A DNA stretch of 50,965 nt from the NCBI GenBank assembly GCA_002506485.1, contig DAXQ01000076.1, forward strand, positions 1 through 50,965, in the 5' to 3' direction. The position numbers and the translations under genes are program-made. Below, in pieces: positions 21,217 through 35,251 of the stretch. The DNA comes from Euryarchaeota archaeon UBA136 (GTDB lineage Archaea > Thermoplasmatota > Poseidoniia > MGIII > CG-Epi1). The notes beneath the pieces were generated by a model. It saw only the letters and a list, made by a program, of their open reading frames with translations. It did no database searches and was not told the DNA's origin. Within the stretch, counting starts at the first letter, position 1. Every line of letters begins with the position of its first letter.

Positions 21217-21576
21217 GTGTTGGCACACGAGTATATCCCTATAGGGATTTTTGCACTTATTGCACTCACATTTCCTGTGCTGACCTTCTTTATCGGAAGG
21301 TTCTTTCGGCCTCATAATGACAATGCTCTCAAAAATTCAACTTATGAGTGTGGAGAGGTTCCTAGAGGCGAAGCTCATATTCAGTTTCATTTTCAGTACT
21401 ATATGTTTGCTATACTGTTTGTCATTTTTGATTTAGTAGTAGTTTTTCTAGTCTTGTGGGTTCAAGTATATCTTGATTTGGAGGTATCAGCTAAAGTTGT
21501 AATGTTGTTGTTTCTCCTGCTGACCTTGCTGGGTCTGTGGTACGCTTTTAGAAAAGAGGATGTAATCTGGATATGA
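21217..21576 (+). CDS. nuoA: NADH-quinone oxidoreductase subunit A
   Basis: 119 aa with 3 TM helices and the conserved YECGE loop. Confidence 0.9.
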   Translation: MLAHEYIPIGIFALIALTFPVLTFFIGRFFRPHNDNALKNSTYECGEVPRGEAHIQFHFQYYMFAILFVIFDLVVVFLVLWVQVYLDLEVSAKVVMLLFLLLTLLGLWYAFRKEDVIWI

Positions 21577-22214
21577 GTTCTAAGAAAGTACGTGGCAATC
21601 CTGGTCTTAGAAGAGGTGTGGGTTCTAAAACAACTGATTTAGACGAAATAATGGAAGACCCTCCTGCAGGAGATTGGCTTACTCTTCGTTCAGATCAACT
21701 GTTAGAATGGATAGATAACGCTGTTTACAATGTTGCTGAAACCACTGGAATGCGCGAAGTCGTCAATCGAGTAACTAGACCTATCTTCAATTATGGGCAA
21801 AGATTCTCTCCTCATCCGCTTCACTTTGGTATAATGTGTTGCGCTATTGAGATGGGTCAGGCCTCTGCACCGGACCATGATATAGACCGACTTGGTCTGG
21901 TTTACCGTTCTTCCCCAAGGCAGTGTGATGTGCTAATTGTCAATGGGCCTGTTTGTGAAAAACTGCGCCCTAAATTGAAGACACTTTATGAGCAAATGCC
22001 GGAACCCAAATGGGTTATTGCAATGGGCGAATGTGCAATATCAGGAGGTCCCTACTGGGATTCCTACTCTGTTGTAGCAGGTGCAGATACATTCATCCCT
22101 GTTGATGTATATATTCCAGGATGTCCGGTTAGACCTGAAGCTTTGATGCATGGTTTTCTGACTTTGCAAAAGAAGATCAGAGAAAAGGAACCAGGCATGT
22201 TCTTGAGACGTTAA
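21573..22214 (+). CDS. nuoB: NADH-quinone oxidoreductase subunit B (N2 cluster subunit)
   Basis: 213 aa. The N2 cluster ligands are present: tandem [14 protein letters not shown] and GCPVRPE. There is a 4-nt overlap with nuoA. Confidence 0.95.
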
Positions 22215-22216
22215 GT

Positions 22217-22696
22217 ATGGAAATCAAGGAGTTAATGCAAGAGTTATCAGCCCTTAAGGGAGTTAGCAACGCTTCAATGATTAGGGATAATGTAGTCAAA
22301 TTGGATATTGATAAGAATTCATCCAAAGAGTTTTTTACCAAATTGAGGGATGACTTTGGCTTTGAACATTGTTCATTGATAACTGCAATCGATAATCAAC
22401 CAGAATTTGAACTGGTTTATCATTTTACATCTGTAAACAAGTCCGTTACTGTTGGATCCACTGACATGTCTGTAATGATGGAGGCACATGTATTTCTTGA
22501 ACGGGATACACCTACCATAGAATCAATATCTGATTTATGGGGTGGTGCTAATTGGCATGAGAGAGAAGCTTTTGATCTGATGGGAATTTACTTTGTAGGC
22601 CATCCAGATTTGCGTCGTGTATTGTTACCAGAAGGTTTTGCTGGTCATCCGTTAAGGAAGGATTACGTGTATGAGATACACGAGGAGGAGTGGTAA
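22217..22696 (+). CDS. nuoC: NADH-quinone oxidoreductase subunit C
   Basis: 159 aa. It has the NuoC/30-kDa signature [24 protein letters not shown]. Confidence 0.9.
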
Positions 22697-23790
22697 TGGC
22701 TGAGATGTGGATTAGTATGGGCCCGCAGCATCCAATGACCCATGGTCTCTGGACATTGAAGGTCAAGGTAGATGGTGAAACAATAACTGATGCAGATCCT
22801 GAATTAGGCTATCTCCACCGTTCAGTCGAGAAAATGGGCGAACGTCGTAAATATTTTATGAATACCACTTTGACGGATCGCCTTTGTTATGCTAGTTCTA
22901 CTACTTGGACACACAACTACGTTCTTACAGTCGAAGAATTAATGAATGTTGAAGTACCTGAAAGAGCAAAATACATACGTACGATTATGCTAGAACTTCA
23001 GAGATTAGCTTCTCATTTAATGTGGGCAGGAGCCTATATGCCTGATTTAGGACATATCACTGGAGCCCTTTATTTCTGGAGAGATCGTGAATTGTTCCTG
23101 AACCTTCTGGAGGTTCCAAGTGGAAGTCGTCTTCTCTACAATTATATTCGAATTGGTGGGGTGAAAAGGGACCTGCCAGATGGTTTTGTTGAAAAAACCG
23201 AGAGGGTCTTCAAACTATTTGAAAAACGACTGGATGAATATGCTGATCTTTTTGAAAATTCTAAGATTTTTCGCATGCGCACTGAGGATGTTGGTAATTT
23301 CACTGCAGCGCAGGCCCAGAATCTTGGAATAACTGGCCCCAATATGAGAGGATGTGGGACCAAATTTGATTTGAGAAAAAATGACCCCTATGAGATTTAT
23401 GAAGAAATAGACTGGGCTATTCAAACAAGAGAGGCAGGGCCTGGCTATAGTGATTGTTTCAGCCGATATATGGTTCGTATAGATGAGATGAAGGAATCAA
23501 TTCGGATAATTCGTGATTGTTTCAAAAAGATGCCCAAGGGACCAACCTTGGCCTCAGCTATTCCTGTTCGGGCTCAGGGAGAAGCTTTCCGTAGAACAGA
23601 GGATTCTAGGGGAGAGGCTCTGATGTATGTGGTTGGTGACGGAACAGATCGTCCCTATCGGTGGAAAATCAAAAGCCCGATGTTTACCACAATTTCAGCC
23701 TGCCCTCACTATCTCAAAGGGTACAAGCTTGCAGATATTCCCGCAATCATGGGTAGTATTGATATTTGTATAGGAGAGACTGACAAATGA
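22696..23790 (+). CDS. nuoD: NADH-quinone oxidoreductase subunit D
   Basis: It has GPQHPMTHG and LGYLHRSVEKM and ends IGETDK. I prefer ATG 22696 (TAATG overlap with the nuoC stop, GAGGAGGAG SD 6-14 nt upstream) over the track's GTG at 22690. Confidence 0.95.
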   Translation: MAEMWISMGPQHPMTHGLWTLKVKVDGETITDADPELGYLHRSVEKMGERRKYFMNTTLTDRLCYASSTTWTHNYVLTVEELMNVEVPERAKYIRTIMLELQRLASHLMWAGAYMPDLGHITGALYFWRDRELFLNLLEVPSGSRLLYNYIRIGGVKRDLPDGFVEKTERVFKLFEKRLDEYADLFENSKIFRMRTEDVGNFTAAQAQNLGITGPNMRGCGTKFDLRKNDPYEIYEEIDWAIQTREAGPGYSDCFSRYMVRIDEMKESIRIIRDCFKKMPKGPTLASAIPVRAQGEAFRRTEDSRGEALMYVVGDGTDRPYRWKIKSPMFTTISACPHYLKGYKLADIPAIMGSIDICIGETDK

Positions 23791-25016
23791 CCTTATTCGA
23801 TGCATGTAGAATTATGGCTGAATGGACAGTAAAGGTTCTCATACCGGTCTTTGAGTTTCAAGAAGGTCTTTTTCCTCCTTTCAGTAATCCTGCAGGTTGG
23901 GTCGCGGATTGGTTAGCAACAGAGGGGGGGCTGGATACAATGGCATGGTTTTATGCAGTCAACATCGCTTTTATGATAGGAATGACCAATCTGATTCTGG
24001 TTATCCATCTAGAGAGAAAAGTTGCTGCTAGAATTCAAGATCGTAGAGGCCCAATGCTATCTTTTAGATCTCTTCGTGAGTTAGGCGAGGACTTATCTGG
24101 TCAGGCACCTTCCTGGAAATTTAAGAAGAATTATAGTGGTATAGGGATTTTACAGAATCTAGCTGATGGAATCAAGGCCATTACCAAGGAATTAATTGTT
24201 CCGGCCAAGGCAGATAAATTTCTATTCACTATGGGGCCTATCATATTCATATCTTCATCTGTGTTTTTATTGGCTCTATTTCCTCTGTCAGATAGATTCG
24301 CAGCCTCTTCGGCACCGGCTGGCTTGATGGTGATTATGGCCGCTTTTTCCATAGCACCAATAGGGGTTTTGACCTCAGGTTGGGCGTCCAATAACAAATA
24401 TTCCATGATTGGAGGCATGCGTTCCGCGGCTCAGTTAATGTCGTATGAGATTCCTTTGCTTTTGAGCATGGCGGGTGTGTTTCTGTTAGCAGGGTCCTTT
24501 GATCCGGTTGTAATTGTGGAACAGCAACAAGCCTCTACCTGGTTTTTTGGTTTACCAATGTGGAATTTTATTCCCCAATTCATTGGTTTTGCTGTTTTCA
24601 TGATTTGTATCTTAGCTGAAGTTGAGCGCGTTCCATTCGATTTGCCGGAAGCCGAAGCTGAATTGGTTGAAGGCTGGACAACAGAGTATAGTGGAATTCG
24701 ATATATGTTGTTCCTAGCCGCAGAATATATCAGAGGATTTGCAGGTGCCGCGGTTGCGACTATCTTGTTTTTAGGTGGCTGGGCAGGTCCTTGGCCAGTA
24801 CCTCCCGAAATCTGGTTTTTGCTTAAGGTATATCTAATTCTTTTATTTTGGATTTTTATCCGCTGGTCAGTGCCCCGCATAAGAACCGACCAGATTCTTG
24901 TTCTGGGCTGGAAAAAGTTGCTACCTTTGTCTCTGATAAATCTCCTTATCGTTATATTTATGGTTGAGATTTACCCATATTTCACAGAGATAGTTAATCT
25001 TCCGGAGGTATTCTGA
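23787..25016 (+). CDS. nuoH: NADH-quinone oxidoreductase subunit H (longer than usual, at 409 aa)
   Basis: It has ERKVAARIQDRRGP, LQNLADGIK and EAEAELVEGWTTEYSG. About 45 extra N-terminal residues are present, plus an insert between RRGP and GILQ. Confidence 0.93.
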   Translation: MTLFDACRIMAEWTVKVLIPVFEFQEGLFPPFSNPAGWVADWLATEGGLDTMAWFYAVNIAFMIGMTNLILVIHLERKVAARIQDRRGPMLSFRSLRELGEDLSGQAPSWKFKKNYSGIGILQNLADGIKAITKELIVPAKADKFLFTMGPIIFISSSVFLLALFPLSDRFAASSAPAGLMVIMAAFSIAPIGVLTSGWASNNKYSMIGGMRSAAQLMSYEIPLLLSMAGVFLLAGSFDPVVIVEQQQASTWFFGLPMWNFIPQFIGFAVFMICILAEVERVPFDLPEAEAELVEGWTTEYSGIRYMLFLAAEYIRGFAGAAVATILFLGGWAGPWPVPPEIWFLLKVYLILLFWIFIRWSVPRIRTDQILVLGWKKLLPLSLINLLIVIFMVEIYPYFTEIVNLPEVF

Positions 25017-25792
25017 TGAGTGAAAAAAGTGAACTAGGAATTATGGATATTTTCGTTAATCCAATGAAAGTAACGATGAAGCAATTTTTCAAATCAACAT
25101 TTGGAAAACCAACCACAGTAATGTATCCTTTGGAAAGAAGGGATCCACCACCAACCTACAGAGGAATGAATGCCGTAATCTGGGATCTTTGTATTGGTTG
25201 TGGGATCTGTGCCGAGGTCTGCCCTAACAGATGTTTGAAGATGAAGCCTGTTGAATTATCGGACGATGAACAAGACAGGGCGTGGTACGGTTCACATCTG
25301 GCCAAACGGAAGCATAAACCCGAAAGGCCTGCAATAAATTTCGGCCACTGTATGTTTTGTGGATTCTGTGAGGATTATTGTCCGACCGGTGCTATGACCA
25401 TGACGGATTTTTACGAATTGGCAGATACTAATCGTGAAGGATTGATTTATCCTGCCCGGTCAATGAAAGTCGACCTCGAAGATCTTCCTCAACTTCCCCT
25501 TACGAATTATATGATGGAATCTCCCGTACTGGATGTTGATCCCTGTATTGGATGTAGTAAATGTGTGGACAATTGCCCTACCAATTGTATTATCATGGAT
25601 GTAGGGCCTCAGGATAAGACGCTTAAAAGTGGCAAGGTCCGGAATGTGGAAAATCCATATTTTGACTATACTATTTGTATTGGCTGTTCGACCTGTGTCA
25701 AGGTTTGTCCAGCAGATTGCCTGCATATGGAACCAATAAGCAACTCAAGTTCAAGTGGACTGACTACTGAGGAATCCCCGACCGAGGCCTGA
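25016..25792 (+). CDS. nuoI: NADH-quinone oxidoreductase subunit I with an additional C-terminal 2x[4Fe-4S] ferredoxin domain
   Basis: 258 aa. There are four CxxCxxCxxxCP motifs: CIGCGICAEVCP, CMFCGFCEDYCP, CIGCSKCVDNCP and CIGCSTCVKVCP. The SD GGAGGT lies at 25004-25009, and the start overlaps the nuoH stop as TGATG. Confidence 0.93.
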   Translation: MSEKSELGIMDIFVNPMKVTMKQFFKSTFGKPTTVMYPLERRDPPPTYRGMNAVIWDLCIGCGICAEVCPNRCLKMKPVELSDDEQDRAWYGSHLAKRKHKPERPAINFGHCMFCGFCEDYCPTGAMTMTDFYELADTNREGLIYPARSMKVDLEDLPQLPLTNYMMESPVLDVDPCIGCSKCVDNCPTNCIIMDVGPQDKTLKSGKVRNVENPYFDYTICIGCSTCVKVCPADCLHMEPISNSSSSGLTTEESPTEA

Positions 25793-25796
25793 TAGT

Positions 25797-26060
25797 TTGG
25801 ATTTAGCGATTCTCATTTTCTGGGGTCTGGCGAGTTTAATCCTAGCTTCAGCCTGGGCCGTTGTAAATGGGAATGATATTGTTCATGCCGTTGTCTGGTT
25901 GGCAACTGTTTTCTTGTTGACAGCATGCCTATTCATTTTGGCCGACGCTGAATTCTTGGCAGTTATCCAGGTCTTGGTCTATGTGGGTGCTATTTCCGTG
26001 GTCATAATATTTGGAATCATGCTCACTAAGAGAACTCTAAAAGGTGGTGAAGATGTCTAG
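25797..26060 (+). CDS. nuoJ: NADH-quinone oxidoreductase subunit J, N-terminal part (TM1-3; nuoJ1)
   Basis: 87 aa with a TTG start. The NuoJ/ND6 core FLAVIQVLVYVGAISVVIIFGIML is present. Confidence 0.8.
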   Translation: MDLAILIFWGLASLILASAWAVVNGNDIVHAVVWLATVFLLTACLFILADAEFLAVIQVLVYVGAISVVIIFGIMLTKRTLKGGEDV

Positions 26061-26826
26061 TCGGACTATTATCTGGGTGAGGGATGCCTTAGTGATTACC
26101 TTATCGCTTTATATCGTTTTCTCAATTGCCATGGCTCCTTGGAATAATTTGAAGTCTGAGGAACCCTTGTCTATGACCTGTGAAACGGGGTGTGCTCCTG
26201 TGATAAATTACCCAGAGGATGGTTACTATCACCACAAGGATTCAATTGTGTTCGAATGGAATTCAGTCTCGGTGGGGTATCGATTTACAGTTCTAAATAG
26301 TACGGGACATGTCTTCCATGATGAAAATCTTACTGGTATTGCATCATCTACAACCAATAGATTGCCAGTCGGTGATTATACCTCATTCGTTTATTACAAG
26401 GGTATAGTCGGCTCTTTACTGGGAGATAATGAATTTCTTCTTAGTGATGAGGATCATTCTCTGGCTTCTTCTTCAAAAATTACTGTGGTCTGGGCCCCAG
26501 TTGGGATTACTTATGGAATTGAGATTCGAGAGCACAAAGCAACAGAGATACGGATTGTTCATCAAGCCGAGGACTTGGCTCAGACATCATATGAGTTCCA
26601 GGATTTTGATAATGGTAAAACTTATTCTTGGTCTGTCTATGCCGTTGATTCCATGGGTTTTGTCTCGGAGTCGTCCAATGCAAGGGAATTGAATATAGAT
26701 ACAACCAAATTTTTAGCTTATGAACTGTTCAATAATTGGGAGGTTCCTTTCATACTGTTGGGAATCTTGATGGTTGTTGCGTTACAGGCAGGCGTTTTCC
26801 TTGCCAGGGAGGAAACTAATGATTGA
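26053..26826 (+). CDS. nuoJ: NADH-quinone oxidoreductase subunit J, C-terminal part (nuoJ2) with a ~190-aa tandem Ig/Fn3-like insertion
   Basis: ATG 26053 is preceded by AGGTGGTGA (the track ORF starts at GTG 26044). There is an N-terminal TM and a C-terminal TM (WEVPFILLGILMVVALQAGVFLA, which is NuoJ TM5-like). Between them are two beta-rich repeats (IVFEWNSVSVGYRF...GDYTSFVYY and ITVVWAPVGITYGI...KTYSWSVYA). Confidence 0.65.
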   Translation: MSSRTIIWVRDALVITLSLYIVFSIAMAPWNNLKSEEPLSMTCETGCAPVINYPEDGYYHHKDSIVFEWNSVSVGYRFTVLNSTGHVFHDENLTGIASSTTNRLPVGDYTSFVYYKGIVGSLLGDNEFLLSDEDHSLASSSKITVVWAPVGITYGIEIREHKATEIRIVHQAEDLAQTSYEFQDFDNGKTYSWSVYAVDSMGFVSESSNARELNIDTTKFLAYELFNNWEVPFILLGILMVVALQAGVFLAREETND

Positions 26827-27121
26827 TCCAATTCATTTTGTGGTATTTTCTTCAATTCTGATGTTGATCGGGGCTTATGGTGTGATTCGCAACAAGAATG
26901 CAATAGTGGTCCTTATGTCTATTGAAATAATGTTGACCGCAGCAAACATCAATTTTGTTGCATTCTCCAGTTATTATCATGATCTAACTGGCCAGGTAGC
27001 GGTACTGTTTGTTACAACCATAGCCGCGGCAGAAGTGGCAATAGGTTTGGCAATACTTTTGAGCCTTTTCAAACAGAGAGACACCATAGAACTTGATTTG
27101 TTGAATACGTTGAGGTGGTAG
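26819..27121 (+). CDS. nuoK: NADH-quinone oxidoreductase subunit K
   Basis: 100 aa from ATG 26819, with SD GGGAGGAA upstream. It has 3 TM helices and the NuoK pattern GAYGVIRNKNAIVVLMSIEIMLTAAN with conserved Glu. The track's longer ORF (from 26774) overlaps nuoJ2. Confidence 0.9.
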   Translation: MIDPIHFVVFSSILMLIGAYGVIRNKNAIVVLMSIEIMLTAANINFVAFSSYYHDLTGQVAVLFVTTIAAAEVAIGLAILLSLFKQRDTIELDLLNTLRW

Positions 27122-27122
27122 A

Positions 27123-29303
27123 TTGAGCGAAAAAGACCCCGACACATCAAATATGGACTTATTGGTAACTATCTTTGGCAGTCTGGCTTTGGCACTAGGG
27201 TTACTATTTTTCTTGGTTCAGGAGGAGGATACTAGTCCAGTCAATGTTGCCTGGTTAATCCCTGTCTTTTCGATTGTTTCATTTGTTCTTATCTTGCTTT
27301 TGGGAAGTTATGATCCCAGAAGAGGCGGTTCAATAGCTGTGATAGGTGTTGGTTTTTCCTCTGTATTTTCATTGGGGGTTGCCTATGATGTCCTGATTAA
27401 TGATGTTACCCGTGGGGGATATATTGAGTCTACGAGAATCTGGTTTGGAGGCCAAACATTCGCGTTTGAATTTGGTACTTACATAGATGGTCTAGCTGGT
27501 TTGCTTCTGTTAGTCGTTGGTTTCGTTTCCTATTTGGTAGTTGTATTTTCTCTAGGGTATATGGTGAAAGAGGGTGACCGCCAAGTAAGATATTTTGCAG
27601 AGATAGCTCTATTTGTGGGCGTGATGTTAGGTTTAGTAGTTGCCAATTCATTTTTATTGATGTTTATATTTTGGGAACTAGTCGGCGTCTGTTCCTATTT
27701 ATTAATTGGATTTTGGTATGAAAAACCATCAGCGGCTTCAGCTGCGAAGAAGGCATTTATCGTTACAAGAGTGGGCGATGTATTTCTGCTTCTTGGCCTT
27801 GTAATCTTATTCAATACTTTTGGTACTCTGAGATATTCGGAGTTGTTCAGTAACCCTGAGCTTCTATCCGAAAATGCTGAGGCAGTAAAGTGGGCGACTT
27901 TGTGTATATTTGGTGGTGCCGTAGGCAAGTCGGCACAATTTCCATTGCATGTTTGGCTTCCAGATGCGATGGAAGGTCCTACTACCGTTTCAGCACTTAT
28001 TCATGCGGCAACTATGGTGAAGGCTGGCGTTTTCCTAGTTGCTCGATCATATCCTCTGATTGTTCACAGTCCTGATACTGCGATATATATTGCTGTTACG
28101 GGAGGTGTTACAGCATTCATAGCTGCTAGTATGGCTATGGTGATGTATGATATCAAGAGAGTTCTGGCCTATTCAACGATTTCTCAATTAGGGTACATGT
28201 TCCTTGGATTGGGTGCGGGTGCTTGGGCTGTCTGGCATGCAACCGAAAATGGGCTGGAAGTCCATGCGCAGGGTTACACTGCTGGTTTATTCCATTTGAT
28301 GAATCATGCGTTTTTCAAGGCATTACTATTCTTGGGTTCAGGTGCAGTGATACATGCAGTCCATACACAGGATATGAGAGAGATGGGAGGATTACGCAAG
28401 GCTATGCCAATCACTTCTACAGCTATGGGTCTTGGTGTCTTGTCTATTGCAGGATTACCTTTCTTTTCTGGATTCTGGTCAAAAGATGAAATTCTTGAGG
28501 CAGTTCACCATAATTGGGATGCTGAAGGGATTTTTGGGGCTTTGTGGTGGTTGGGATTGCTTACTGCAGCTATGACGGCTTTCTATATGACTAGATTGTG
28601 GATGATGACCTTCAGTGGCCCTCCTTCCCATGAGGTAGAAGAGGTAATTCCTTCTGACGATCATTCGGATTCAGGCAATTGGGAGATACTCAAGAAAGAA
28701 GTCAAGATACAGGCACATGAGGCTCCACGGGTCATGACCATACCTCTGATGATTTTAGCCTTTTTAGCTGTCTTTTCAGGATTCGTGGTCTTTCTTGGAG
28801 ATGGTTTTGGTTCGGTGGTCTTCTATGGCGCACATCATTCTTCAGAGGGACCTATTCAATGGGGTCTTCTTGATCATATTTTATTATCGACCTTAACTCA
28901 CTTATCGGTCCTTGTGGGTCTTACAGGAGTAATTCTTGGTTATCTCTTCTACAAGAGAGGGGACGATGGCCAGACTCCATTCTCGACGGCTTTCGTATCT
29001 GATAGCGTTGTCACAAGCAATTTGCATACATTCTTGTCAAATCGCATGTACATGGCGAGATTATTTGATTGGTTTGGTATGAGAACTTGGGATACCTTGG
29101 CCATGGTCTGTGACTGGTTTGATCGTAAGATTATTGACGGGATTGTCAATGGAATTGCTTCCATTACACAAATCTTAAGTGGAGAGGTGAGAAAGTTGAC
29201 TTCAGGTTTTACGGGACATTATGCCTCTCTTACTATAGGTGGCCTTGGTGCTTTGGTAGTAGTTACCCGTGTGGTATTTCCATTGATGGGGTGGTCGTTA
29301 TGA
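27123..29303 (+). CDS. nuoL: NADH-quinone oxidoreductase subunit L
   Basis: 726 aa with a TTG start 6 nt after GAGGTGGT. It has the antiporter-like core (WELVGVCSYLLIGFW, PLHVWLPDAMEGPTTVSALIHAATMV) and a long C-terminal extension typical of NuoL. Confidence 0.93.
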   Translation: MSEKDPDTSNMDLLVTIFGSLALALGLLFFLVQEEDTSPVNVAWLIPVFSIVSFVLILLLGSYDPRRGGSIAVIGVGFSSVFSLGVAYDVLINDVTRGGYIESTRIWFGGQTFAFEFGTYIDGLAGLLLLVVGFVSYLVVVFSLGYMVKEGDRQVRYFAEIALFVGVMLGLVVANSFLLMFIFWELVGVCSYLLIGFWYEKPSAASAAKKAFIVTRVGDVFLLLGLVILFNTFGTLRYSELFSNPELLSENAEAVKWATLCIFGGAVGKSAQFPLHVWLPDAMEGPTTVSALIHAATMVKAGVFLVARSYPLIVHSPDTAIYIAVTGGVTAFIAASMAMVMYDIKRVLAYSTISQLGYMFLGLGAGAWAVWHATENGLEVHAQGYTAGLFHLMNHAFFKALLFLGSGAVIHAVHTQDMREMGGLRKAMPITSTAMGLGVLSIAGLPFFSGFWSKDEILEAVHHNWDAEGIFGALWWLGLLTAAMTAFYMTRLWMMTFSGPPSHEVEEVIPSDDHSDSGNWEILKKEVKIQAHEAPRVMTIPLMILAFLAVFSGFVVFLGDGFGSVVFYGAHHSSEGPIQWGLLDHILLSTLTHLSVLVGLTGVILGYLFYKRGDDGQTPFSTAFVSDSVVTSNLHTFLSNRMYMARLFDWFGMRTWDTLAMVCDWFDRKIIDGIVNGIASITQILSGEVRKLTSGFTGHYASLTIGGLGALVVVTRVVFPLMGWSL

Positions 29304-31168
29304 GATGGTTCTTATTTCTCCTTCTGGTTGTTGCACTTGTTCCTGCTGCGTCAGCTGAAAATCACACAGTGATTGTTACCCAGGCTGATGATTCCAGCTC
29401 ATACTTTTTTGATCCTGAGGTATTGACGGTAAACATTGGAGATACAGTGGAATTTGTTTGGGGCAATGGTTCTCACAATGTAGCTCAGGTTTCCGATTCA
29501 GAATCAAAGACCTATGGTTCAGGGTTCTATTCAGGTGTGCCAGAAGTGGGTGGCAATTGGGTACTGCCAGCTGAGTATACAATGCAGGATGGAACTTTGT
29601 ATTACGTTTGTCAGCCTCATGCGCTGATGGGTATGAGTGGATCAATAATTGTAGGTACTGGAACTCCTCCTCTTCCTGATATTGCAATGGAATTTGGTGA
29701 CTTCCCATGGCTTTCCTATCTTCTGGTATTTCCCCTTATCGGTTCTCTTTGGATTCTTGGTTTCAGAAACAACCCCTCTGCTCCAAGGATAATTGCTCTG
29801 TTCACTACATTATTCACGCTTGGACTATCCATTATAATATTTGTAAAGGCTGGTTCAGGAAGTGGTTTCAGATTAATGGAGGAATATGTATGGGCACCTA
29901 AACTGGGAGTGTCTCTACTACTGGGAGTTGATGGTCTCAGCTCACCGATGGTTCTGTTAACGGGAATCATTACCCCTCTCGCGGTCTTATTTGCTTGGCA
30001 TGAAAAGGAAAAACCAGCCTTATTCTTTGCTTTACTATTGGTAATGCAGACGGCCCTATTCGGTGTTTTCATCACTCTGGATTATTTTGTGTTCTATATC
30101 TTCTGGGAAGTGGTGCTGATTCCAATGTTCTTTTTGATTGCTATTTGGGGTGGCGATAACAAACGATATGCTTCAATCAAGTTCATTATTTACACATTCA
30201 CTGCTTCGGTTGTGATGTTAGTTGGATTTATGGCCCTTTATTTTGAAGCGGGCGTCAATTCCTTTTCGATGATTGAAATTGCCGAGGCTAACGCAGGTTT
30301 CAACAGGGACTTCCAGATCTGGGTTTTTGCGGCATTGTTCATCGGTTTCGCGGTCAAGATACCTTCAGTTCCTTGGCATACTTGGTTACCAGATGCCCAT
30401 GTCGAGGCTCCAACTGCGGGGTCAATTCTTTTAGCTGGAGTCATGCTGAAAATGGGACTTTATGGTTTAATGCGGGCAGCAATCCCGGTTCTACCTTTAG
30501 GTGCCGAGTATTTTGTACCAATAATGGTCGTTTTAGCTATTGTTTCTATATTGTATGGAGCAGCCTTAAGTCTGGGTCAGGAGGACCTGAAAAAATTAGT
30601 AGCATATTCTAGTGTTTCCCATATGGGTGTTGCACTGTTAGGAGTTGCAACGATGACTGAGCTGGGTTTTGCCGGTGCGGTTTTTATGATGTTTGCACAT
30701 GGTATTCTTAGCCCAGCAATGTTCATGGTTGCGGGAGTAATGTTGCATCAAGTTGGCACTCGTGATATTCCAAAACTTGGAGGTCTAGCTGGCTATCAAC
30801 CTACTACTGCTGGAGTTTTTGTTGTTATTTTCTTGGGCAGTCTTGGTCTTCCAGGTATGGCTGTTTTTGTTGCAGAATTGGCAGTTTTTATTGCTTTTTT
30901 CCAGTCTCATGGTTATTGGTTGATACTTCCAATTTTTGGAATGGTTCTGACAGCGGGTTATCATTTATGGGCTTTACAGCGCTCTTTGTTTGGTCCCGAC
31001 AGTGAGCAGATAGAAATGAATCAAGTTCACGAAGCTCCATGGTATGAGTTTTATCCTTTATTGGTAATCGTTATCCTTGCCGCTTTTTTCGGTATTTTCC
31101 CAAGTTATTTGATGGATCCTATAACTGTTGCATGTTATGATATTCTGGCTTTTATGGGGGAAGTATAG
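29300..31168 (+). CDS. nuoM: cupredoxin (type-1 copper) domain fused to NADH-quinone oxidoreductase subunit M
   Basis: ATG 29300 overlaps the nuoL stop as ATGA. A signal peptide (MRWFLFLLLVVALVPAASA) is followed by a cupredoxin with ligands in GSHNV and YYVCQPHALMGM. A Pro-rich linker leads to a complete NuoM (WHTWLPDAHVEAPTAGSILLAGVMLK) with no intervening stop codon. Confidence 0.9.
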   Translation: MRWFLFLLLVVALVPAASAENHTVIVTQADDSSSYFFDPEVLTVNIGDTVEFVWGNGSHNVAQVSDSESKTYGSGFYSGVPEVGGNWVLPAEYTMQDGTLYYVCQPHALMGMSGSIIVGTGTPPLPDIAMEFGDFPWLSYLLVFPLIGSLWILGFRNNPSAPRIIALFTTLFTLGLSIIIFVKAGSGSGFRLMEEYVWAPKLGVSLLLGVDGLSSPMVLLTGIITPLAVLFAWHEKEKPALFFALLLVMQTALFGVFITLDYFVFYIFWEVVLIPMFFLIAIWGGDNKRYASIKFIIYTFTASVVMLVGFMALYFEAGVNSFSMIEIAEANAGFNRDFQIWVFAALFIGFAVKIPSVPWHTWLPDAHVEAPTAGSILLAGVMLKMGLYGLMRAAIPVLPLGAEYFVPIMVVLAIVSILYGAALSLGQEDLKKLVAYSSVSHMGVALLGVATMTELGFAGAVFMMFAHGILSPAMFMVAGVMLHQVGTRDIPKLGGLAGYQPTTAGVFVVIFLGSLGLPGMAVFVAELAVFIAFFQSHGYWLILPIFGMVLTAGYHLWALQRSLFGPDSEQIEMNQVHEAPWYEFYPLLVIVILAAFFGIFPSYLMDPITVACYDILAFMGEV

Positions 31169-32661
31169 TGGATAGTTCTCTTCTTTTCTTGCCTGAACTA
31201 TTGTTGGTAGCCAGTATCATGGCAATCCCGGCTTTGTATATTGCTACTGAGAATAACAAATCTTATTCGATTTGCGCTAATATGACTTTGGCATTGTCAT
31301 TCTTGTTGCTTATATTATTCTGGTTTTATCCGGATGAAGTTTCATTTGAAAAGAATTCGTCAGTTTATATTATTTATAGCCATTTTAAATTGGATACCTT
31401 CTCACAATTATTCAAAATAATATTTGTATTGACAGCTTTGACGGTTTCTGTTCTGAGTGGTTCTTATTTTGAGGAAGATGAGCCTCATCAGGCAGAGTAC
31501 TATACTCTACTTCTTTCTAGTACTTTAGGTATGATGTTGGTTGCTTCTGCGACTGATTTCTTGACACTTTTCTTAGGAATAGAGATATCGGCTTTCAGCA
31601 GTTATGCTATGGTTGCTTTCAGAAAACAGGATGATAAGTCTACGGAAGCAGGGGCCAAATACTTTCTGATAGGTGCTTTTTCTTCGGCACTTACACTTTA
31701 CGGAATATCCTTGCTTTATGCCCTTACTGGTTCGATTACTTTCGAAGGTATGCGTTCATTTTTTACAGGTCTTAATAATGAAGTTGTTTCCGGGAATTTT
31801 GATGAGGTCATTTTTATTTCTAGTTTGTTCATACTTGCTGGTTTAGGCTTCAAGATCGCAGTTGTTCCCTTTCACGCCTGGGCACCTGATGTGTACCAGG
31901 GCGCTCCAACTCCTGTAACGACCCTTCTTGCAGCTGGAAGTAAGGCTATGGGGTTCGTAGCCTTGTTCAGAGTATTCTTGTTCACAATGGAAGCTGTATC
32001 TGATGAGTGGAAGTTAATTCTTGGAATTATAGCTCTTGCTTCAATGACAATTGGTAATCTGGCAGCTATTACTCAGGATGATATTGGTCGGATGCTAGCT
32101 TATTCCTCAATTGCTCAGGCAGGGTACATTCTGATCGCAGTTCCTGCTCTTACCGATGACGCAGTCTCCGGGGCCATTGCCCATACCATGGTTCATGCAT
32201 TCATGAAAGGGGGAGCTTTTGTCATAGTTGCAGGAGTAGGTGCAGCCGGGTTGGGATATAGCCTGGATTCTTACAAAGGTCTGGCTGCACGTTCACAATT
32301 ATTGGCATTGTCCATGACTGTTTGTCTTTTGTCCCTAGTTGGAATCCCTCCGTTTGCCGGATTCATTAGTAAATTTCTGCTATTCTATGGGACTTTGCAA
32401 GCTGGTCTTTCGGGAGATACTTGGATTATTGCATTGGTAATTGCCGGTGTTCTGAATTCTGCACTTTCACTGTATTATTATCTTAAAGTTATTCGGTTCA
32501 TGTATCTTTATGATGCTGTCGGTTCCAAGGATATTGAGTTTAGCAATGCGGTTCGTTATATTTCGTTCCTAACTGTGCTTTTCTTGGCTATTATTCTGCC
32601 CTTGTTCTGGCAGTCCCTCTTTGAAATCTGCAAGGAGGCTACTGTAGCTCTGATGACATGA
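31168..32661 (+). CDS. nuoN: NADH-quinone oxidoreductase subunit N
   Basis: 497 aa with a GTG start overlapping the nuoM stop by 1 nt. The antiporter-like core is present (PFHAWAPDVYQGAPTPVTTLLAAGSK). Confidence 0.9.
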   Translation: MDSSLLFLPELLLVASIMAIPALYIATENNKSYSICANMTLALSFLLLILFWFYPDEVSFEKNSSVYIIYSHFKLDTFSQLFKIIFVLTALTVSVLSGSYFEEDEPHQAEYYTLLLSSTLGMMLVASATDFLTLFLGIEISAFSSYAMVAFRKQDDKSTEAGAKYFLIGAFSSALTLYGISLLYALTGSITFEGMRSFFTGLNNEVVSGNFDEVIFISSLFILAGLGFKIAVVPFHAWAPDVYQGAPTPVTTLLAAGSKAMGFVALFRVFLFTMEAVSDEWKLILGIIALASMTIGNLAAITQDDIGRMLAYSSIAQAGYILIAVPALTDDAVSGAIAHTMVHAFMKGGAFVIVAGVGAAGLGYSLDSYKGLAARSQLLALSMTVCLLSLVGIPPFAGFISKFLLFYGTLQAGLSGDTWIIALVIAGVLNSALSLYYYLKVIRFMYLYDAVGSKDIEFSNAVRYISFLTVLFLAIILPLFWQSLFEICKEATVALMT

Positions 32662-32918
32662 TTGACAAGGATAATATTCAATATAGACAATTTAGTAAAT
32701 TGTGGGCAGGGGAGACACCTAAAGGCGTCAACATCACCAAGAGAGATGTTTTCCGTTCCAAGATGAAAAATTCATGTCAGCAGGAAGGGATTGAATTTAG
32801 TGAAATAAATGCGTTTAGAATTTTCTCGGGAGAGATTAAAGAATTAGGTTCAGACACTCAGAAGGTAGGAGAGATTAAGGTAACTAAACCACCTAGAAGA
32901 CATCTAAGAGGAATTTAA
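32658..32918 (+). CDS. hypothetical soluble 86-aa protein translationally coupled to nuoN
   Basis: It overlaps the nuoN stop as ATGA and fills the whole space to the convergent gene. It is basic with no TM helix, and I recognise no family. Confidence 0.35.
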   Translation: MIDKDNIQYRQFSKLWAGETPKGVNITKRDVFRSKMKNSCQQEGIEFSEINAFRIFSGEIKELGSDTQKVGEIKVTKPPRRHLRGI

Positions 32919-33892
32919 TTTCGGTCACTTACAATTAGTTCATTTGCAAAGGATATAGGTACCTGTTCTAGTAGAATTTTGGTTGATGAATCTGGAACCT
33001 CTTCCAAAAATTTCCGGGACATTTCTTGCCATGGGGCAATCAATTCTTCAAAGATATTCTGAGCATCGCTTGTTTTCACGTTCTTTATAATTTCACCAGC
33101 ATTTCCAGTCTCTATAAATTTATCAATAGATGGTTTGTACCCGCTATAACGAGTTAATCTTGTGACTGGTAAAGTTGGTATTCCAAGGGCTAAGTCTCCT
33201 ACAGGTGTCTTGGTAATTAATGAATTCATAAGATCAAGATAGTCATCAGTTATCTGATATATAATTCCTACAGTTTCCCCGAATTTATACATTGGTAATG
33301 CCAAGTCGGTTTGAGGCGAGATTAATGCCCCTAATTCAGCAGCTGTACTGTATAGTGCTCCAGTCTTTCTTTTTATTCTATGAAGATACACAGATTCACT
33401 GTAATTTTCTTTATCTGTAAAGTCAGCAATCGCCCCTTCAGTCAAATTCCTGGCACATATTGCTAGAGATTTTCCTGTGGCTAATGAGATGGCCCCATGT
33501 AGGGACCCCGTTGCAACCATCAGATCCGCGACTAAAATGGCTGTCCTTGGGCCCAGTTCTTTCCACAATGATGGAGCCTCACGCCTAAATTTATCTCCAT
33601 CTAACCAATCATCATGTATCAAGGTTCCACAATGAATCAATTCCAAGGCCATTCCACATTCGAATGCCAAATGGGCATCGCCACCTAAACAATCGGATAC
33701 TAAACGGCAAAGTACGGGTCGTAATTGCTTTCCTTGCCCTACTCCTTTTTCTATTAGAGGTGCTATATCCTTTGATTCCTTGCTGATTTCTCTTTTCAGA
33801 TGTCTTTGGAACTCAACTCTAACTTCTTCGAAATAATCGTTTAAATTCTGCGAGACTGTCAGATTTTCCTGTAATTTTATTGTTTCTTTCAT
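32915..33892 (-). CDS. trans-polyprenyl diphosphate synthase (GGPP or longer-chain)
   Basis: 325 aa. It has the first Asp-rich motif LIHDDWLDGD and the second ITDDYLD. Confidence 0.88.
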   Translation of the reverse strand: MKETIKLQENLTVSQNLNDYFEEVRVEFQRHLKREISKESKDIAPLIEKGVGQGKQLRPVLCRLVSDCLGGDAHLAFECGMALELIHCGTLIHDDWLDGDKFRREAPSLWKELGPRTAILVADLMVATGSLHGAISLATGKSLAICARNLTEGAIADFTDKENYSESVYLHRIKRKTGALYSTAAELGALISPQTDLALPMYKFGETVGIIYQITDDYLDLMNSLITKTPVGDLALGIPTLPVTRLTRYSGYKPSIDKFIETGNAGEIIKNVKTSDAQNIFEELIAPWQEMSRKFLEEVPDSSTKILLEQVPISFANELIVSDRN

Positions 33893-35172: not shown

Positions 35173-35251
35173 TAGGTACCTTTTAATTTCCTTATTCAAC
35201 TTCATTAGGTATAGTATATAAAACAATCATTATTATTGCCCAATTCAATGA

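What the first reader, a model, noticed from the sequence alone, without database searches (positions are those of the whole stretch)
29300..29689. Exported type-1 copper (cupredoxin) domain covalently fused to the N-terminus of NuoM
The ORF that begins at ATG 29300 overlaps the nuoL stop as ATGA. It first encodes a Sec-type signal peptide with an AxA site (MRWFLFLLLVVALVPAASA).

About 100 residues then follow with the amicyanin/halocyanin-type ligand pattern:
- His in GNGSHNV (codon 29474-29476).
- Cys in YYVCQPHALMGM (29609-29611).
- His in the same block (29618-29620).
- Met in the same block (29627-29629).

All four T1Cu ligands are therefore present, with C-x2-H-x2-M spacing. A Pro-rich linker (GTGTPPLPD) then runs, without any stop codon, into a complete 14-TM NuoM.

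The signal peptide places the copper domain outside the cell membrane. This is compatible with the N-terminus-out topology generally drawn for antiporter-like subunits.

Canonical complex I has no redox cofactor in its membrane arm or on its outer face. A tethered blue-copper centre there could do one of three things:
- relay electrons to or from an outer-face partner such as a terminal oxidase or other cupredoxins;
- dock a supercomplex;
- serve a purely structural role.

An internal ATG at 29687 (MEFGDFPW...), just before TM1, could also yield an unfused NuoM.
Basis: partly seen in the sequence, partly recalled or inferred. Interest (0 to 1): 0.8.

Follow-up and report, generated by a model that had tools for sequence, protein, structure and literature searches.

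The report
Blue-copper protein tethered to complex I
In an uncultured group of ocean archaea (Marine Group III), a small copper electron-carrier protein is permanently fused to the outside-facing end of a proton-pumping subunit of respiratory complex I; I found no solved structure or paper describing this arrangement, and it suggests complex I also serves as a docking site for the last steps of respiration.

Summary
ORF 29300-31168 (622 aa) encodes a signal peptide, a type-1 copper cupredoxin, a short Pro-rich linker and a complete NuoM, in a nuoABCDHIJKLMN operon.

One detail is wrong. The conserved axial Met is M112 (C-x2-H-x4-M, plastocyanin/pseudoazurin spacing), not M110.

The fusion is no artefact. 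All 17 complete Marine Group III (MGIII) species genomes recovered have one uninterrupted 620-638 aa ORF. H59, C104, H107 and M112 are invariant, and the copper domain is under purifying selection (median dN/dS about 0.22). A profile search of 1.84 billion protein representatives found one full-length fusion cluster.

The closest free-standing relatives are small cupredoxins with their own C-terminal membrane helix. In the sister group MGIIb, one of these lies beside the COX3-COX2-COX1 oxidase operon.

Best reading: a membrane-anchored electron carrier to the terminal oxidase swapped its anchor helix for NuoM. Complex I thereby became the tether, and possibly the scaffold, for the high-potential end of a copper-based respiratory chain.

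This mechanism is inferred. Copper binding, the redox partners and any supercomplex are untested. No published description was found.

Novelty: new variant of a known kind. Interest: 0.7.

The parts
21217..32661 (+). nuoA-B-C-D-H-I-J(split)-K-L-M-N operon: an 11-subunit archaeal complex I-type enzyme with no nuoEFG
   Evidence: Pfam and NCBIfam hits for each ORF
27123..29303 (+). nuoL. Its stop codon overlaps the start of the fusion gene (ATGA).
   Evidence: NF005141/TIGR01974 NuoL at 587-611 bits; sequence
29291..29356 (+). Signal peptide (MRWFLFLLLVVALVPAASA, cleavage predicted after ASA). The start is ATG 29300 or, more likely, GTG 29291.
   Evidence: Basic n-region, 12-16 residue hydrophobic core and small residues at -3/-1 followed by E/D, conserved in 17 genomes. 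Modelled as a helix at aa 2-12. No SignalP run was available.
29357..29653 (+). Type-1 copper cupredoxin domain (aa 20-118). Net charge of the mature domain is about -11.
   Evidence: PF00127 above cutoff. AF2 pLDDT 93. Foldseek top 50 matches are all pseudoazurin or plastocyanin. Median dN/dS 0.22.
29474..29479 (+). His59 (N-terminal Cu ligand) and Asn60
   Evidence: Invariant in 17/17 genomes. Aligns to the ligand His of plastocyanin 1j5c.
29609..29635 (+). Ligand loop C104-Q-P-H107-A-L-M-G-M112. Cys104, His107 and Met112 are the ligands. Met110 is not conserved.
   Evidence: C, P, H and M112 are invariant in 17/17; M110 is M10/L6/A1. Aligns to CEPHRGAGM of 1j5c.
29654..29707 (+). Short Gly/Pro-rich acidic linker (GTGTPPLPDIAMEFGDFP, about 18 aa). 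It includes the relic NuoM start Met130 (29687-29689).
   Evidence: pLDDT below 50 at aa 122-128. Mean K+R 0.41 and D+E 3.1. Unfused NuoMs start at this column. Met130 is not conserved.
29708..31168 (+). Complete NuoM antiporter-like core, from TM1 onward, including the stop codon
   Evidence: TIGR01972 model positions 1-482 of 486. Foldseek TM-score 0.89-0.95 to solved NuoM/NdhD/ND4. Aligns from residue 3-5 of solved chains, with the TM5 Glu, TM7 Lys, TM8 Lys and TM12 Glu motifs retained.
31168..32661 (+). nuoN
   Evidence: TIGR01770 at 383 bits

Best explanation
**What the gene product is.** It is one polypeptide. A Sec-type signal peptide exports a plastocyanin/pseudoazurin-like type-1 copper domain to the outer face of the membrane. 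An ~18-residue linker holds the domain on the N-terminus of NuoM, inside an 11-subunit complex I.

**Origin.** The copper domain descends from the small, C-terminally membrane-anchored cupredoxins of Poseidoniia archaea. These appear to act as electron donors to the heme-copper terminal oxidase. In the fusion, NuoM TM1 has replaced the carrier's own anchor helix.

**Function.** The domain most likely still carries single electrons in the high-potential segment of the chain, from a quinol-oxidising complex to the terminal oxidase. It probably does not take part in complex I's own low-potential chain. The tether is short, so the carrier's partners must come to complex I. That makes complex I the anchor, and possibly the scaffold, of a cytochrome-c-free respiratory assembly.

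**Shown here:** the fusion, its conservation, the ligand set, the fold, purifying selection, the ancestry and the cox linkage of a relative.

**Inferred:** copper binding, export and cleavage, the electron-carrier role, the identity of the partners and any supercomplex.
For: **The fusion is real and conserved**
- There is a single ORF in the window.
- More than 70 non-redundant clusters carry PF00127+PF00361 at 62-95% identity.
- All 17 complete MGIII species-genome loci carry it, including the CG-Epi1 and CG-Bathy1 lineages.

**The copper site is intact**
- H59, C104, H107 and M112, plus N60 and P106, are invariant.
- They align with the plastocyanin ligands.
- The domain model has pLDDT 93, and the top 50 PDB fold matches are all soluble electron carriers, either pseudoazurin or plastocyanin.

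**Selection**
- Median dN/dS of the domain is 0.22, falling to 0.05-0.08 in close pairs. The NuoM part scores 0.07.

**Topology**
- The tripartite signal peptide is conserved, and the linker before TM1 is free of Lys and Arg while the TM1-2 and TM3-4 loops are basic.
- The fusion point is residue 3-5 of canonical NuoM.
- From established knowledge of the E. coli and T. thermophilus structures (3RKO, 4HE8), that N-terminus lies on the periplasmic side.

**Ancestry**
- The nearest free-standing relatives all have a signal peptide, the cupredoxin, an acidic linker and one C-terminal TM helix with a basic tail.
- One of them, P0177 from MGIIb, is 41% identical to the window domain. It lies about 0.8 kb upstream of COX3-COX2-COX1 in four contigs.
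- Another paralogue lies near CtaA.
- MGII 'halocyanin' is reported as a highly transcribed electron-transport gene (PMC9723583).

**Energetics (established knowledge)**
- Type-1 copper potentials are roughly +180 to +400 mV for this class. That is far above the ferredoxin/NADH-to-menaquinone span of complex I.
- The NuoM outer face is far from the quinone site.
- A MenA-like gene flanks the operon.
Against: - No terminal oxidase, cytochrome b/Rieske complex or second cupredoxin lies in the 51-kb window.
- I could not verify that MGIII genomes encode such partners.
- Copper binding and signal-peptide cleavage are predicted only.
- A carrier fixed by an ~18-residue tether cannot shuttle between freely diffusing complexes. 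The model therefore requires close association with its partners, for which there is no evidence here.
- A related lineage fuses a non-redox 'choice-of-anchor V' domain at the same position. The NuoM N-terminus may therefore simply be a convenient anchor with no functional coupling to complex I.
Confidence: 0.55

Rival explanations
1. Incidental anchor capture. The cupredoxin is an ordinary membrane-anchored redox protein that exchanged its own TM helix for NuoM. The exchange happened because its gene lay next to nuoM and the NuoM N-terminus faces outward. There is no functional coupling to complex I and no supercomplex. The tether is neutral or merely saves one helix.
For: - The free-standing relatives already carry a single C-terminal anchor.
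- On one contig a self-anchored copy directly follows nuoL.
- A related lineage has an unrelated 'choice-of-anchor V' exported domain fused at the same site.
Against: - The fusion has been kept in every complete MGIII genome examined, across deep divergence (50% identity in the N-terminal region), with no reversion to split genes.
- Fixing a diffusible carrier to one large complex, at one copy per complex, should be costly unless its partners are nearby.
- The linker is short and its length is conserved.
Confidence: 0.2
2. The tethered copper centre serves a different outer-face partner. Candidates are a copper nitrite reductase (pseudoazurin's classic partner), a multicopper oxidase, or one of the giant multi-cupredoxin surface proteins. 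The link would then be to extracellular or alternative electron flow rather than to the aerobic oxidase.
For: - The best fold matches include pseudoazurins.
- The same cupredoxin subfamily occurs as 4-12 tandem repeats in very large exported proteins.
- Fasciclin-cupredoxin proteins occur near paralogues.
Against: - No such partner genes lie in the window or in the operon flanks.
- The only contextual linkages seen for close relatives are to cox and heme A genes.
Confidence: 0.12
3. A structural, docking or regulatory module without net electron transfer. The beta-sandwich would stabilise the membrane arm, contact the S-layer or a neighbouring complex, or act as a redox or pH sensor at the proton exit of NuoM. 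The copper site would be kept mainly for fold stability.
For: - A second extra-membrane, weakly fn3-like domain is inserted in NuoJ of the same arm. This suggests a general decoration of the outer face.
- The domain evolves about 3 times faster than NuoM.
Against: - All four redox ligands, plus the HN and CxPH motifs, are strictly invariant while the rest of the domain diverges to about 47% identity. This is the pattern expected for a working redox site.
- The closest folds are dedicated electron carriers.
Confidence: 0.1
4. Artefact. A frameshift, mis-assembly or gene-calling error joins a separate cupredoxin gene to nuoM.
For: One near-identical contig (L001) was called as two genes.
Against: - The L001 split is a single TGG-to-TAG change inside TM1, with the frame otherwise continuous.
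- All 17 independent complete genome loci, and dozens of metagenome clusters from different projects, keep one ORF.
Confidence: 0.01

Closest known systems
Plastocyanin / pseudoazurin (soluble type-1 copper electron carriers, PF00127)
   Same: - Same fold.
- Same His/Cys/His/Met ligand set.
- Same C-x2-H-x4-M loop.
- Best sequence matches in the PDB and best fold matches.
   Different: - The fused domain is not soluble. It is covalently tethered to a 14-helix membrane subunit.
- It scores below the equivalog cutoffs of plastocyanin (29.9 against 87.9), pseudoazurin (37.7 against 109.9) and halocyanin (41.7 against 93.8).
- It is strongly acidic overall.
C-terminally membrane-anchored cupredoxins of Poseidoniia (MGII 'halocyanin/plastocyanin', e.g. 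P0177, P0144)
   Same: - Closest relatives of the domain: 41% identity for P0177, and visibly much closer by inspection for P0144 against the CG-Epi1-type fused domains (not computed).
- Same signal peptide, acidic linker and membrane tether logic.
- P0177 is cox-adjacent.
   Different: They are anchored by their own single helix and are free to diffuse in the membrane. Here the anchor is NuoM inside complex I.
Electron carriers fused into respiratory complexes (cytochrome c domain on subunit II of caa3 oxidases; dihaem cytochrome cc of actinobacterial bcc-aa3 supercomplexes; SoxE sulfocyanin in the Sulfolobus SoxM complex). Recalled from established knowledge, not tested here.
   Same: The principle is the same: a normally mobile one-electron carrier becomes a tethered part of a membrane complex, which shortens or fixes the transfer path.
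   Different: - In those systems the carrier is attached to its own redox partner, complex III or IV.
- Here it is attached to complex I, which is not expected to exchange electrons with it.
- There is no homology between those cases and this one.
Canonical NuoM / ND4 / NdhD of solved complex I and NDH-1 structures
   Same: - Full-length match, with TM-score 0.89-0.95.
- Conserved charged residues.
- Same operon position between nuoL and nuoN.
   Different: All solved homologues retrieved are about 440-530 aa and begin at TM1. None carries an N-terminal extra-membrane domain or any metal centre.

Membership tests
Type-1 copper cupredoxin, plastocyanin/azurin family (Pfam PF00127) | Profile score above the curated gathering threshold | tested here: met
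   31.1 bits for the whole protein and 36.1 bits for the domain alone, against a cutoff of 21.2
Type-1 copper cupredoxin, plastocyanin/azurin family (Pfam PF00127) | His...Cys-x2-His-xn-Met ligand set at the canonical positions | tested here: met
   H59, C104, H107 and M112 align with the ligands of plastocyanin 1j5c. They are invariant in 17/17 genomes.
Type-1 copper cupredoxin, plastocyanin/azurin family (Pfam PF00127) | Greek-key beta-sandwich cupredoxin fold | tested here: met
   The AF2 domain model has pLDDT 93. The Foldseek top 50 are all pseudoazurin or plastocyanin, with E down to 8e-9 and TM-score 0.56-0.77.
Type-1 copper cupredoxin, plastocyanin/azurin family (Pfam PF00127) | Binds one copper with blue (about 600 nm) absorption, narrow A-parallel EPR and reversible one-electron redox chemistry | not testable with these tools
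   Requires an expressed protein
Halocyanin (TIGR03102), pseudoazurin (TIGR02375) and plastocyanin (TIGR02656) named subfamilies | Score above the NCBIfam curated cutoff | tested here: not met
   41.7 against 93.8, 37.7 against 109.85, and 29.9 against 87.85. The domain is a distinct cupredoxin subfamily and should not be named as any of these.
   M110 is variable (M10/L6/A1). The invariant Met is M112, four residues after H107.
NuoM, antiporter-like subunit of complex I (TIGR01972 / PF00361) | Full-length profile match above the cutoff | tested here: met
   499.4 bits against 263.8, covering model positions 1-482 of 486 at aa 138-615
NuoM, antiporter-like subunit of complex I (TIGR01972 / PF00361) | Encoded between nuoL and nuoN in a nuo operon | tested here: met
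   Operon order A-B-C-D-H-I-J-K-L-M-N
NuoM, antiporter-like subunit of complex I (TIGR01972 / PF00361) | Conserved charged residues of the proton path (TM5 Glu, TM7 Lys, TM8 Lys, TM12 Glu) | tested here: met
   E270, K353, K384 and E526 are invariant in alignment A1. They are matched in the alignments to NdhD1 and Paracoccus NuoM. The assignment to helices relies on established structures.
NuoM, antiporter-like subunit of complex I (TIGR01972 / PF00361) | 14-helix fold with the N-terminus on the outer (P) side | tested here: met
   Fold TM-score 0.89-0.95 to solved chains. The beta-hairpin lies between TM2 and TM3. The charge distribution of the first loops fits. The sidedness itself is taken from published structures.
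Sec-exported protein with a cleavable signal peptide | n-h-c tripartite signal with small residues at -3/-1 | tested here: inconclusive
   The pattern is present and conserved in 17 genomes. No dedicated predictor was available and cleavage is untested. If the signal is not cleaved, it becomes an extra helix and the domain is still outside.
Respiratory supercomplex with a tethered electron carrier | Physical association of complex I with the carrier's redox partners | not testable with these tools
   Needs native membranes, cross-linking or cryo-EM. The presence of cox and cytochrome b genes in MGIII was not verified here.

The most novel reading that the evidence does not exclude
In Marine Group III archaea, complex I is the physical hub of a cytochrome-c-free respirasome. 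The NuoM-tethered blue-copper centre sits on the outer face of the membrane arm, possibly together with the extra NuoJ domain. It passes electrons directly from a docked quinol-oxidising complex to a docked heme-copper oxidase. If so, the entire chain from low-potential donor to O2 runs on one assembly built around complex I. A further untested possibility is that the local proton output of NuoM gates the copper centre through protonation of its His ligand.
Probability: 0.22. Interest if true: 0.88.

Novelty: new variant of a known kind. Interest (0 to 1): 0.7.

Why it matters
- **Complex I:** the enzyme is normally described with no redox cofactor in its membrane arm or on its outer face. None of the solved NuoM/ND4/NdhD chains retrieved here has an extra domain at the N-terminus.
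- **A natural experiment:** a conserved, selected copper centre at that position in a globally distributed ocean archaeal clade bears directly on how respiratory complexes are wired together.
- **If the carrier model is right:** a mobile carrier can be immobilised on a complex that is not its redox partner. That implies obligatory proximity of complexes I, III and IV in an archaeon without cytochrome c. It gives a concrete, testable handle on archaeal supercomplexes.
- **Ecology:** MGIII are predicted heme auxotrophs (bioRxiv 10.1101/2021.01.11.426183). How they organise a copper-dependent chain is relevant to trace-metal use in the ocean.
- **Annotation:** database entries such as the 493-aa CG-Epi2 protein (P0075) appear to have been started at the internal Met and so miss the copper domain.

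Tried and rejected
1. **Split-gene or frameshift artefact.** L001 splits the gene only through one TGG-to-TAG change. L018 lacks the domain only because of a run of Ns. L003, L019 and L020 are cut by contig or locus ends. Rejected.
2. **Amicyanin-type C-x2-H-x2-M site.** Rejected in favour of C-x2-H-x4-M.
3. **Conserved internal start producing an unfused NuoM.** Unlikely: Met130 is replaced in 5 of 17 genomes, and no SD-like motif precedes it.
4. **Fusions outside MGIII.** The exhaustive profile search returned one full-length fusion cluster. Ten mid-sized two-stretch hits were checked and none has an antiporter domain. Fusions with a very divergent cupredoxin could still be missed, because only the best 150 hits are listed.
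5. **Redox partners in the window.** None was found. The UbiA-family neighbour is MenA-like, not a heme O synthase.
6. **Literature.** Eight searches and three papers examined gave no description of a cupredoxin-NuoM fusion. The primary MGIII genome paper is not held, and two searches returned only irrelevant papers.
7. **Homology search with the domain alone.** It returned few hits because of the word index. The profile search was needed.
8. **Cu-site geometry and the domain-NuoM interface.** These could not be inspected because model coordinates are not exposed to the scripting tool.

Full report
**1. The observation**

The window carries an uninterrupted ORF from ATG 29300 to the stop at 31166-31168 (622 aa). 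Its start overlaps the nuoL stop as ATGA. The translation reads as four parts:
- a signal-peptide-like N-terminus (MRWFLFLLLVVALVPAASA);
- about 100 residues of beta-rich sequence;
- a Gly/Pro-rich linker (GTGTPPLPDIAMEFGDFP);
- a complete antiporter-like subunit.

The domain scans agree. Pfam gives PF00127 Copper-bind at aa 29-118 (31-36 bits, cutoff 21.2) and PF00361 at aa 261-551. NCBIfam TIGR01972 NuoM matches aa 138-615 to model positions 1-482 of 486, at 499 bits against a cutoff of 264.

The neighbouring ORFs are nuoA, B, C, D, H, I, J (split in two), K and L upstream, and nuoN downstream. The operon contains no nuoEFG, so this is the 11-subunit archaeal type. The rest of the window is archaeal housekeeping: thermosome, aIF2-gamma, S6e, aTrm56, deoxyhypusine synthase and aRF1.

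**2.

*Ligands.* His59, Cys104 and His107 are at the stated codons. M112 (29633-29635) is invariant. A phmmer alignment to Synechocystis plastocyanin (1j5c) pairs SHNV with PHNI, and CQPHALMGM with CEPHRGAGM. The site is therefore C-x2-H-x4-M, which is the plastocyanin/pseudoazurin loop and not the amicyanin one. The domain also falls below the NCBIfam cutoffs for halocyanin, pseudoazurin and plastocyanin. It is a cupredoxin subfamily of its own.

*Start codon.* Homologues mostly begin M/V-V-x-V/M-R/K. The GTG at 29291 is therefore a plausible true start.

*Internal ATG.* ATG 29687 lies exactly where unfused NuoMs start, and the NuoM part aligns from residue 3-5 of solved NuoM/NdhD chains. It is the relic of the ancestral start. 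It is replaced by Leu or Glu in 5 of 17 genomes and is preceded by CTCCTCCTCTTCC rather than a purine-rich motif. A conserved second product is unlikely.

**3. Is the fusion real and conserved?**

A search of 5.8 billion protein clusters returned more than 70 clusters with both PF00127 and PF00361, 617-638 aa long and 62-95% identical. They come from ENA, JGI, NCBI, Tara and Logan assemblies. NuoMs at or below about 61% identity are plain proteins of about 497 aa.

A scan of one genome per GTDB species found the N-terminal region in 20 loci. All are labelled Marine Group III or Poseidoniia archaea and include single-cell genomes. Re-reading the DNA gave these results:
- All 17 loci that contain the complete gene have one ORF of 620-638 aa with H...C-x2-H-x4-M.
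- Three other loci are cut by contig or locus ends.
- One locus (L018) has a scaffold gap over the region.
- The single apparent split gene (L001, 98% nucleotide identity) results from one G-to-A change. It turns the invariant Trp137 codon inside TM1 into TAG, and the frame stays continuous downstream. This is an error or a nonsense variant, not a two-gene architecture.

Nei-Gojobori estimates give a median dN/dS of 0.22 for the cupredoxin part, falling to 0.05-0.08 in the least saturated pairs. The NuoM part scores 0.07. The domain is under purifying selection but evolves faster than the pump.

A profile of the junction region was searched against 1.84 billion 50%-identity representatives. 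It returned a single full-length fusion cluster (P0070). Ten mid-sized candidates were checked and none carries an antiporter domain. On this evidence the fusion is a clade-wide trait restricted to MGIII.

**4. Structure and topology**

The full-length AF2 model (pLDDT 82.5) shows these elements:
- an N-terminal helix;
- a beta-sandwich at aa 21-118;
- a low-confidence linker at aa 122-128;
- the NuoM helices from residue 137;
- the characteristic beta-hairpin between TM2 and TM3.

The NuoM part superposes on solved NuoM/NdhD/ND4 chains with a target-normalised TM-score of 0.89-0.95. All of those chains are about 440-530 aa and lack any N-terminal domain.

The domain modelled alone reaches pLDDT 93. 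Its 50 best PDB matches are all pseudoazurins or plastocyanins.

Across 17 genomes the N-terminus keeps a basic n-region, a hydrophobic core of 12-16 residues and small residues at -3/-1 followed by Glu or Asp. The linker before TM1 has almost no Lys or Arg, whereas the TM1-2 and TM3-4 loops do. The mature domain has a net charge of -8 to -16.

In the published E. coli and T. thermophilus structures, the N-terminus of antiporter-like subunits lies on the periplasmic side. Together, these points place the copper domain on the outer face. This holds whether or not the signal peptide is cleaved.

**5. Where the domain came from**

After the fusion itself, the best hits of the profile search fall into two groups.

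*Very large proteins with 4-12 tandem cupredoxin repeats*.

*Small proteins of 157-190 aa.* These share one architecture: a signal peptide, a cupredoxin with the same HNVAQV...GFRSG...LYY[IV]CEPH...M[RK]G motifs, an acidic linker, and one C-terminal TM helix with a basic tail.
- P0177 is annotated as a plastocyanin/azurin-family protein of Candidatus Thalassarchaeaceae (MGIIb) and is 41% identical to the window domain. In four independent contigs it lies about 0.8 kb upstream of COX3-COX2-COX1.
- A paralogue lies near the heme A synthase CtaA.
- MGII 'halocyanin' is reported to be among the most highly transcribed genes and is interpreted as a respiratory carrier (PMC9723583).
- P0144 is very close in sequence to the fused domains of the CG-Epi1 lineage. 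On a 1.46-kb contig it directly follows the 3' end of nuoL with a 4-nt overlap. It carries its own anchor helix and stop codon and is followed by an unrelated gene.

The simplest history is that a self-anchored carrier gene adjacent to nuoL/nuoM lost its anchor helix and stop codon. NuoM TM1 then took over the anchoring.

A related lineage (P0079, 63% identical NuoM, also between nuoL and nuoN) instead carries an N-terminal 'choice-of-anchor V' domain, at 75.6 bits against a cutoff of 42. The NuoM N-terminus has therefore been used as an anchor at least twice.

**6. Mechanism**

*What is shown.* This is an exported, conserved, intact type-1 copper fold fixed by an ~18-residue tether to NuoM. 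It derives from anchored cupredoxins, at least one of which is linked to a terminal oxidase operon.

*What follows from established knowledge.* Type-1 copper centres of this class operate far above the potential of the ferredoxin/NADH-to-quinone span. The NuoM outer face is remote from the quinone site and the Fe-S chain. The copper centre is therefore very unlikely to belong to complex I's own electron path. A MenA-like gene next to the operon suggests a menaquinone-type pool.

*What is inferred.* The domain still works as a one-electron carrier between a quinol-oxidising complex and the heme-copper oxidase. Because it cannot diffuse, its partners must lie next to complex I.

I give this model 0.55. 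The main rival is that the fusion is a neutral anchor swap without functional coupling (0.2). The other rivals are:
- a different outer-face partner (0.12);
- a structural or regulatory module (0.1);
- an artefact (0.01).

*The chief weaknesses.* I could not confirm that MGIII genomes encode the oxidase and a quinol:cupredoxin oxidoreductase. Copper binding is unproven. Nothing here demonstrates a supercomplex.

**7. Comparison with what is known, and novelty**

The two parts are ordinary members of known families (PF00127 cupredoxin and TIGR01972 NuoM). Tethering of electron carriers to respiratory complexes is also a known principle: examples are the cytochrome c domain of caa3 oxidases, the actinobacterial cytochrome cc, and Sulfolobus sulfocyanin (recalled from memory, not tested here).

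What is new is the site of attachment. The carrier is fixed to a proton-pumping subunit of complex I, which is not the carrier's redox partner. None of the solved homologues retrieved has any such domain. Eight full-text searches found no description of it.

I classify it as a new variant of a known kind and score its interest at 0.7. A bioenergetics specialist would find a conserved copper centre on the outer face of the complex I membrane arm surprising. It also makes the question of archaeal respiratory supercomplexes directly testable. The functional claim remains inferential.

Noticed in passing
window 25797-26060 and 26044-26826 (+): nuoJ is split into two overlapping ORFs. The second has an N-terminal TM helix, a hydrophilic insert of about 190 aa with a weak fn3 hit (22.6 bits, below the cutoff of 25), and the last NuoJ helix. 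This may be a second extra-membrane domain on the same membrane arm. L017 (CG-Bathy1) shows the same split (88 + 241 aa).
   Followed up: partly
window 25016-25792 (+): NuoI is 258 aa and carries an extra C-terminal PorD-like 2x[4Fe-4S] ferredoxin domain (aa 163-239, TIGR02179 67.5 bits). Given the lack of nuoEFG in the operon, this suggests a built-in ferredoxin-type electron input module.
   Followed up: partly
window 33895-35226 (-) and 32915-33892 (-): Directly downstream of the nuo operon lie a MenA-like prenyltransferase with an N-terminal PAS domain and a polyprenyl diphosphate synthase. A sensor domain fused to a quinone-biosynthesis enzyme is unusual. The MenA hits are below the equivalog cutoffs.
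   Followed up: partly
L001 897-899: A 98%-identical metagenome contig has TAG in place of the invariant Trp137 codon (TGG) inside NuoM TM1. As a result the gene caller split the fusion into a 136-aa 'cupredoxin' and a truncated 430-aa 'NuoM'. This is a sequencing error or a nonsense variant.
   Followed up: yes
L087 1-1463: A short contig has the 3' end of nuoL followed, with a 4-nt overlap, by a free-standing cupredoxin (P0144). P0144 has its own C-terminal TM anchor and stop codon and is followed by an unrelated soluble-protein gene instead of nuoM. This may be the unfused ancestral-type arrangement, a rearranged operon or a chimeric assembly.
   Followed up: partly
L090 1153-3174 (protein P0079): A related lineage (63% identical NuoM, also between nuoL and nuoN) carries a different exported N-terminal domain of about 190 aa. 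NCBIfam identifies it as 'choice-of-anchor V' (75.6 bits against 42). It contains a GCNCHG motif. Its function is unknown.
   Followed up: partly
proteins P0132-P0135, P0139, P0143: Very large proteins (1353-3670 aa) contain 8-12 tandem copies of the same cupredoxin subfamily. P0132 is on a 6.19-Mb contig. Their organisms and roles were not examined.
   Followed up: no
window 32658-32918 (+): An 86-aa basic ORF overlaps the nuoN stop and matches no family. Small ORFs also follow nuoN in L090 (94 aa) and L001 (at least 56 aa). It could be a small lineage-specific subunit or a spurious ORF.
   Followed up: no
protein P0075 (MGIII CG-Epi2, 493 aa) and P0074 (521 aa): Public annotations of close homologues start at the internal Met or at a Met inside the ligand loop, and so omit the copper domain. 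These are likely start-codon miscalls that hide the fusion in databases.
   Followed up: partly
window 27123-29303 (+): NuoL is 726 aa. The NuoL profiles start matching at about residue 41, and the ORF opens with TTG. Either there is an N-terminal extension of about 40 aa or the true start lies downstream.
   Followed up: no
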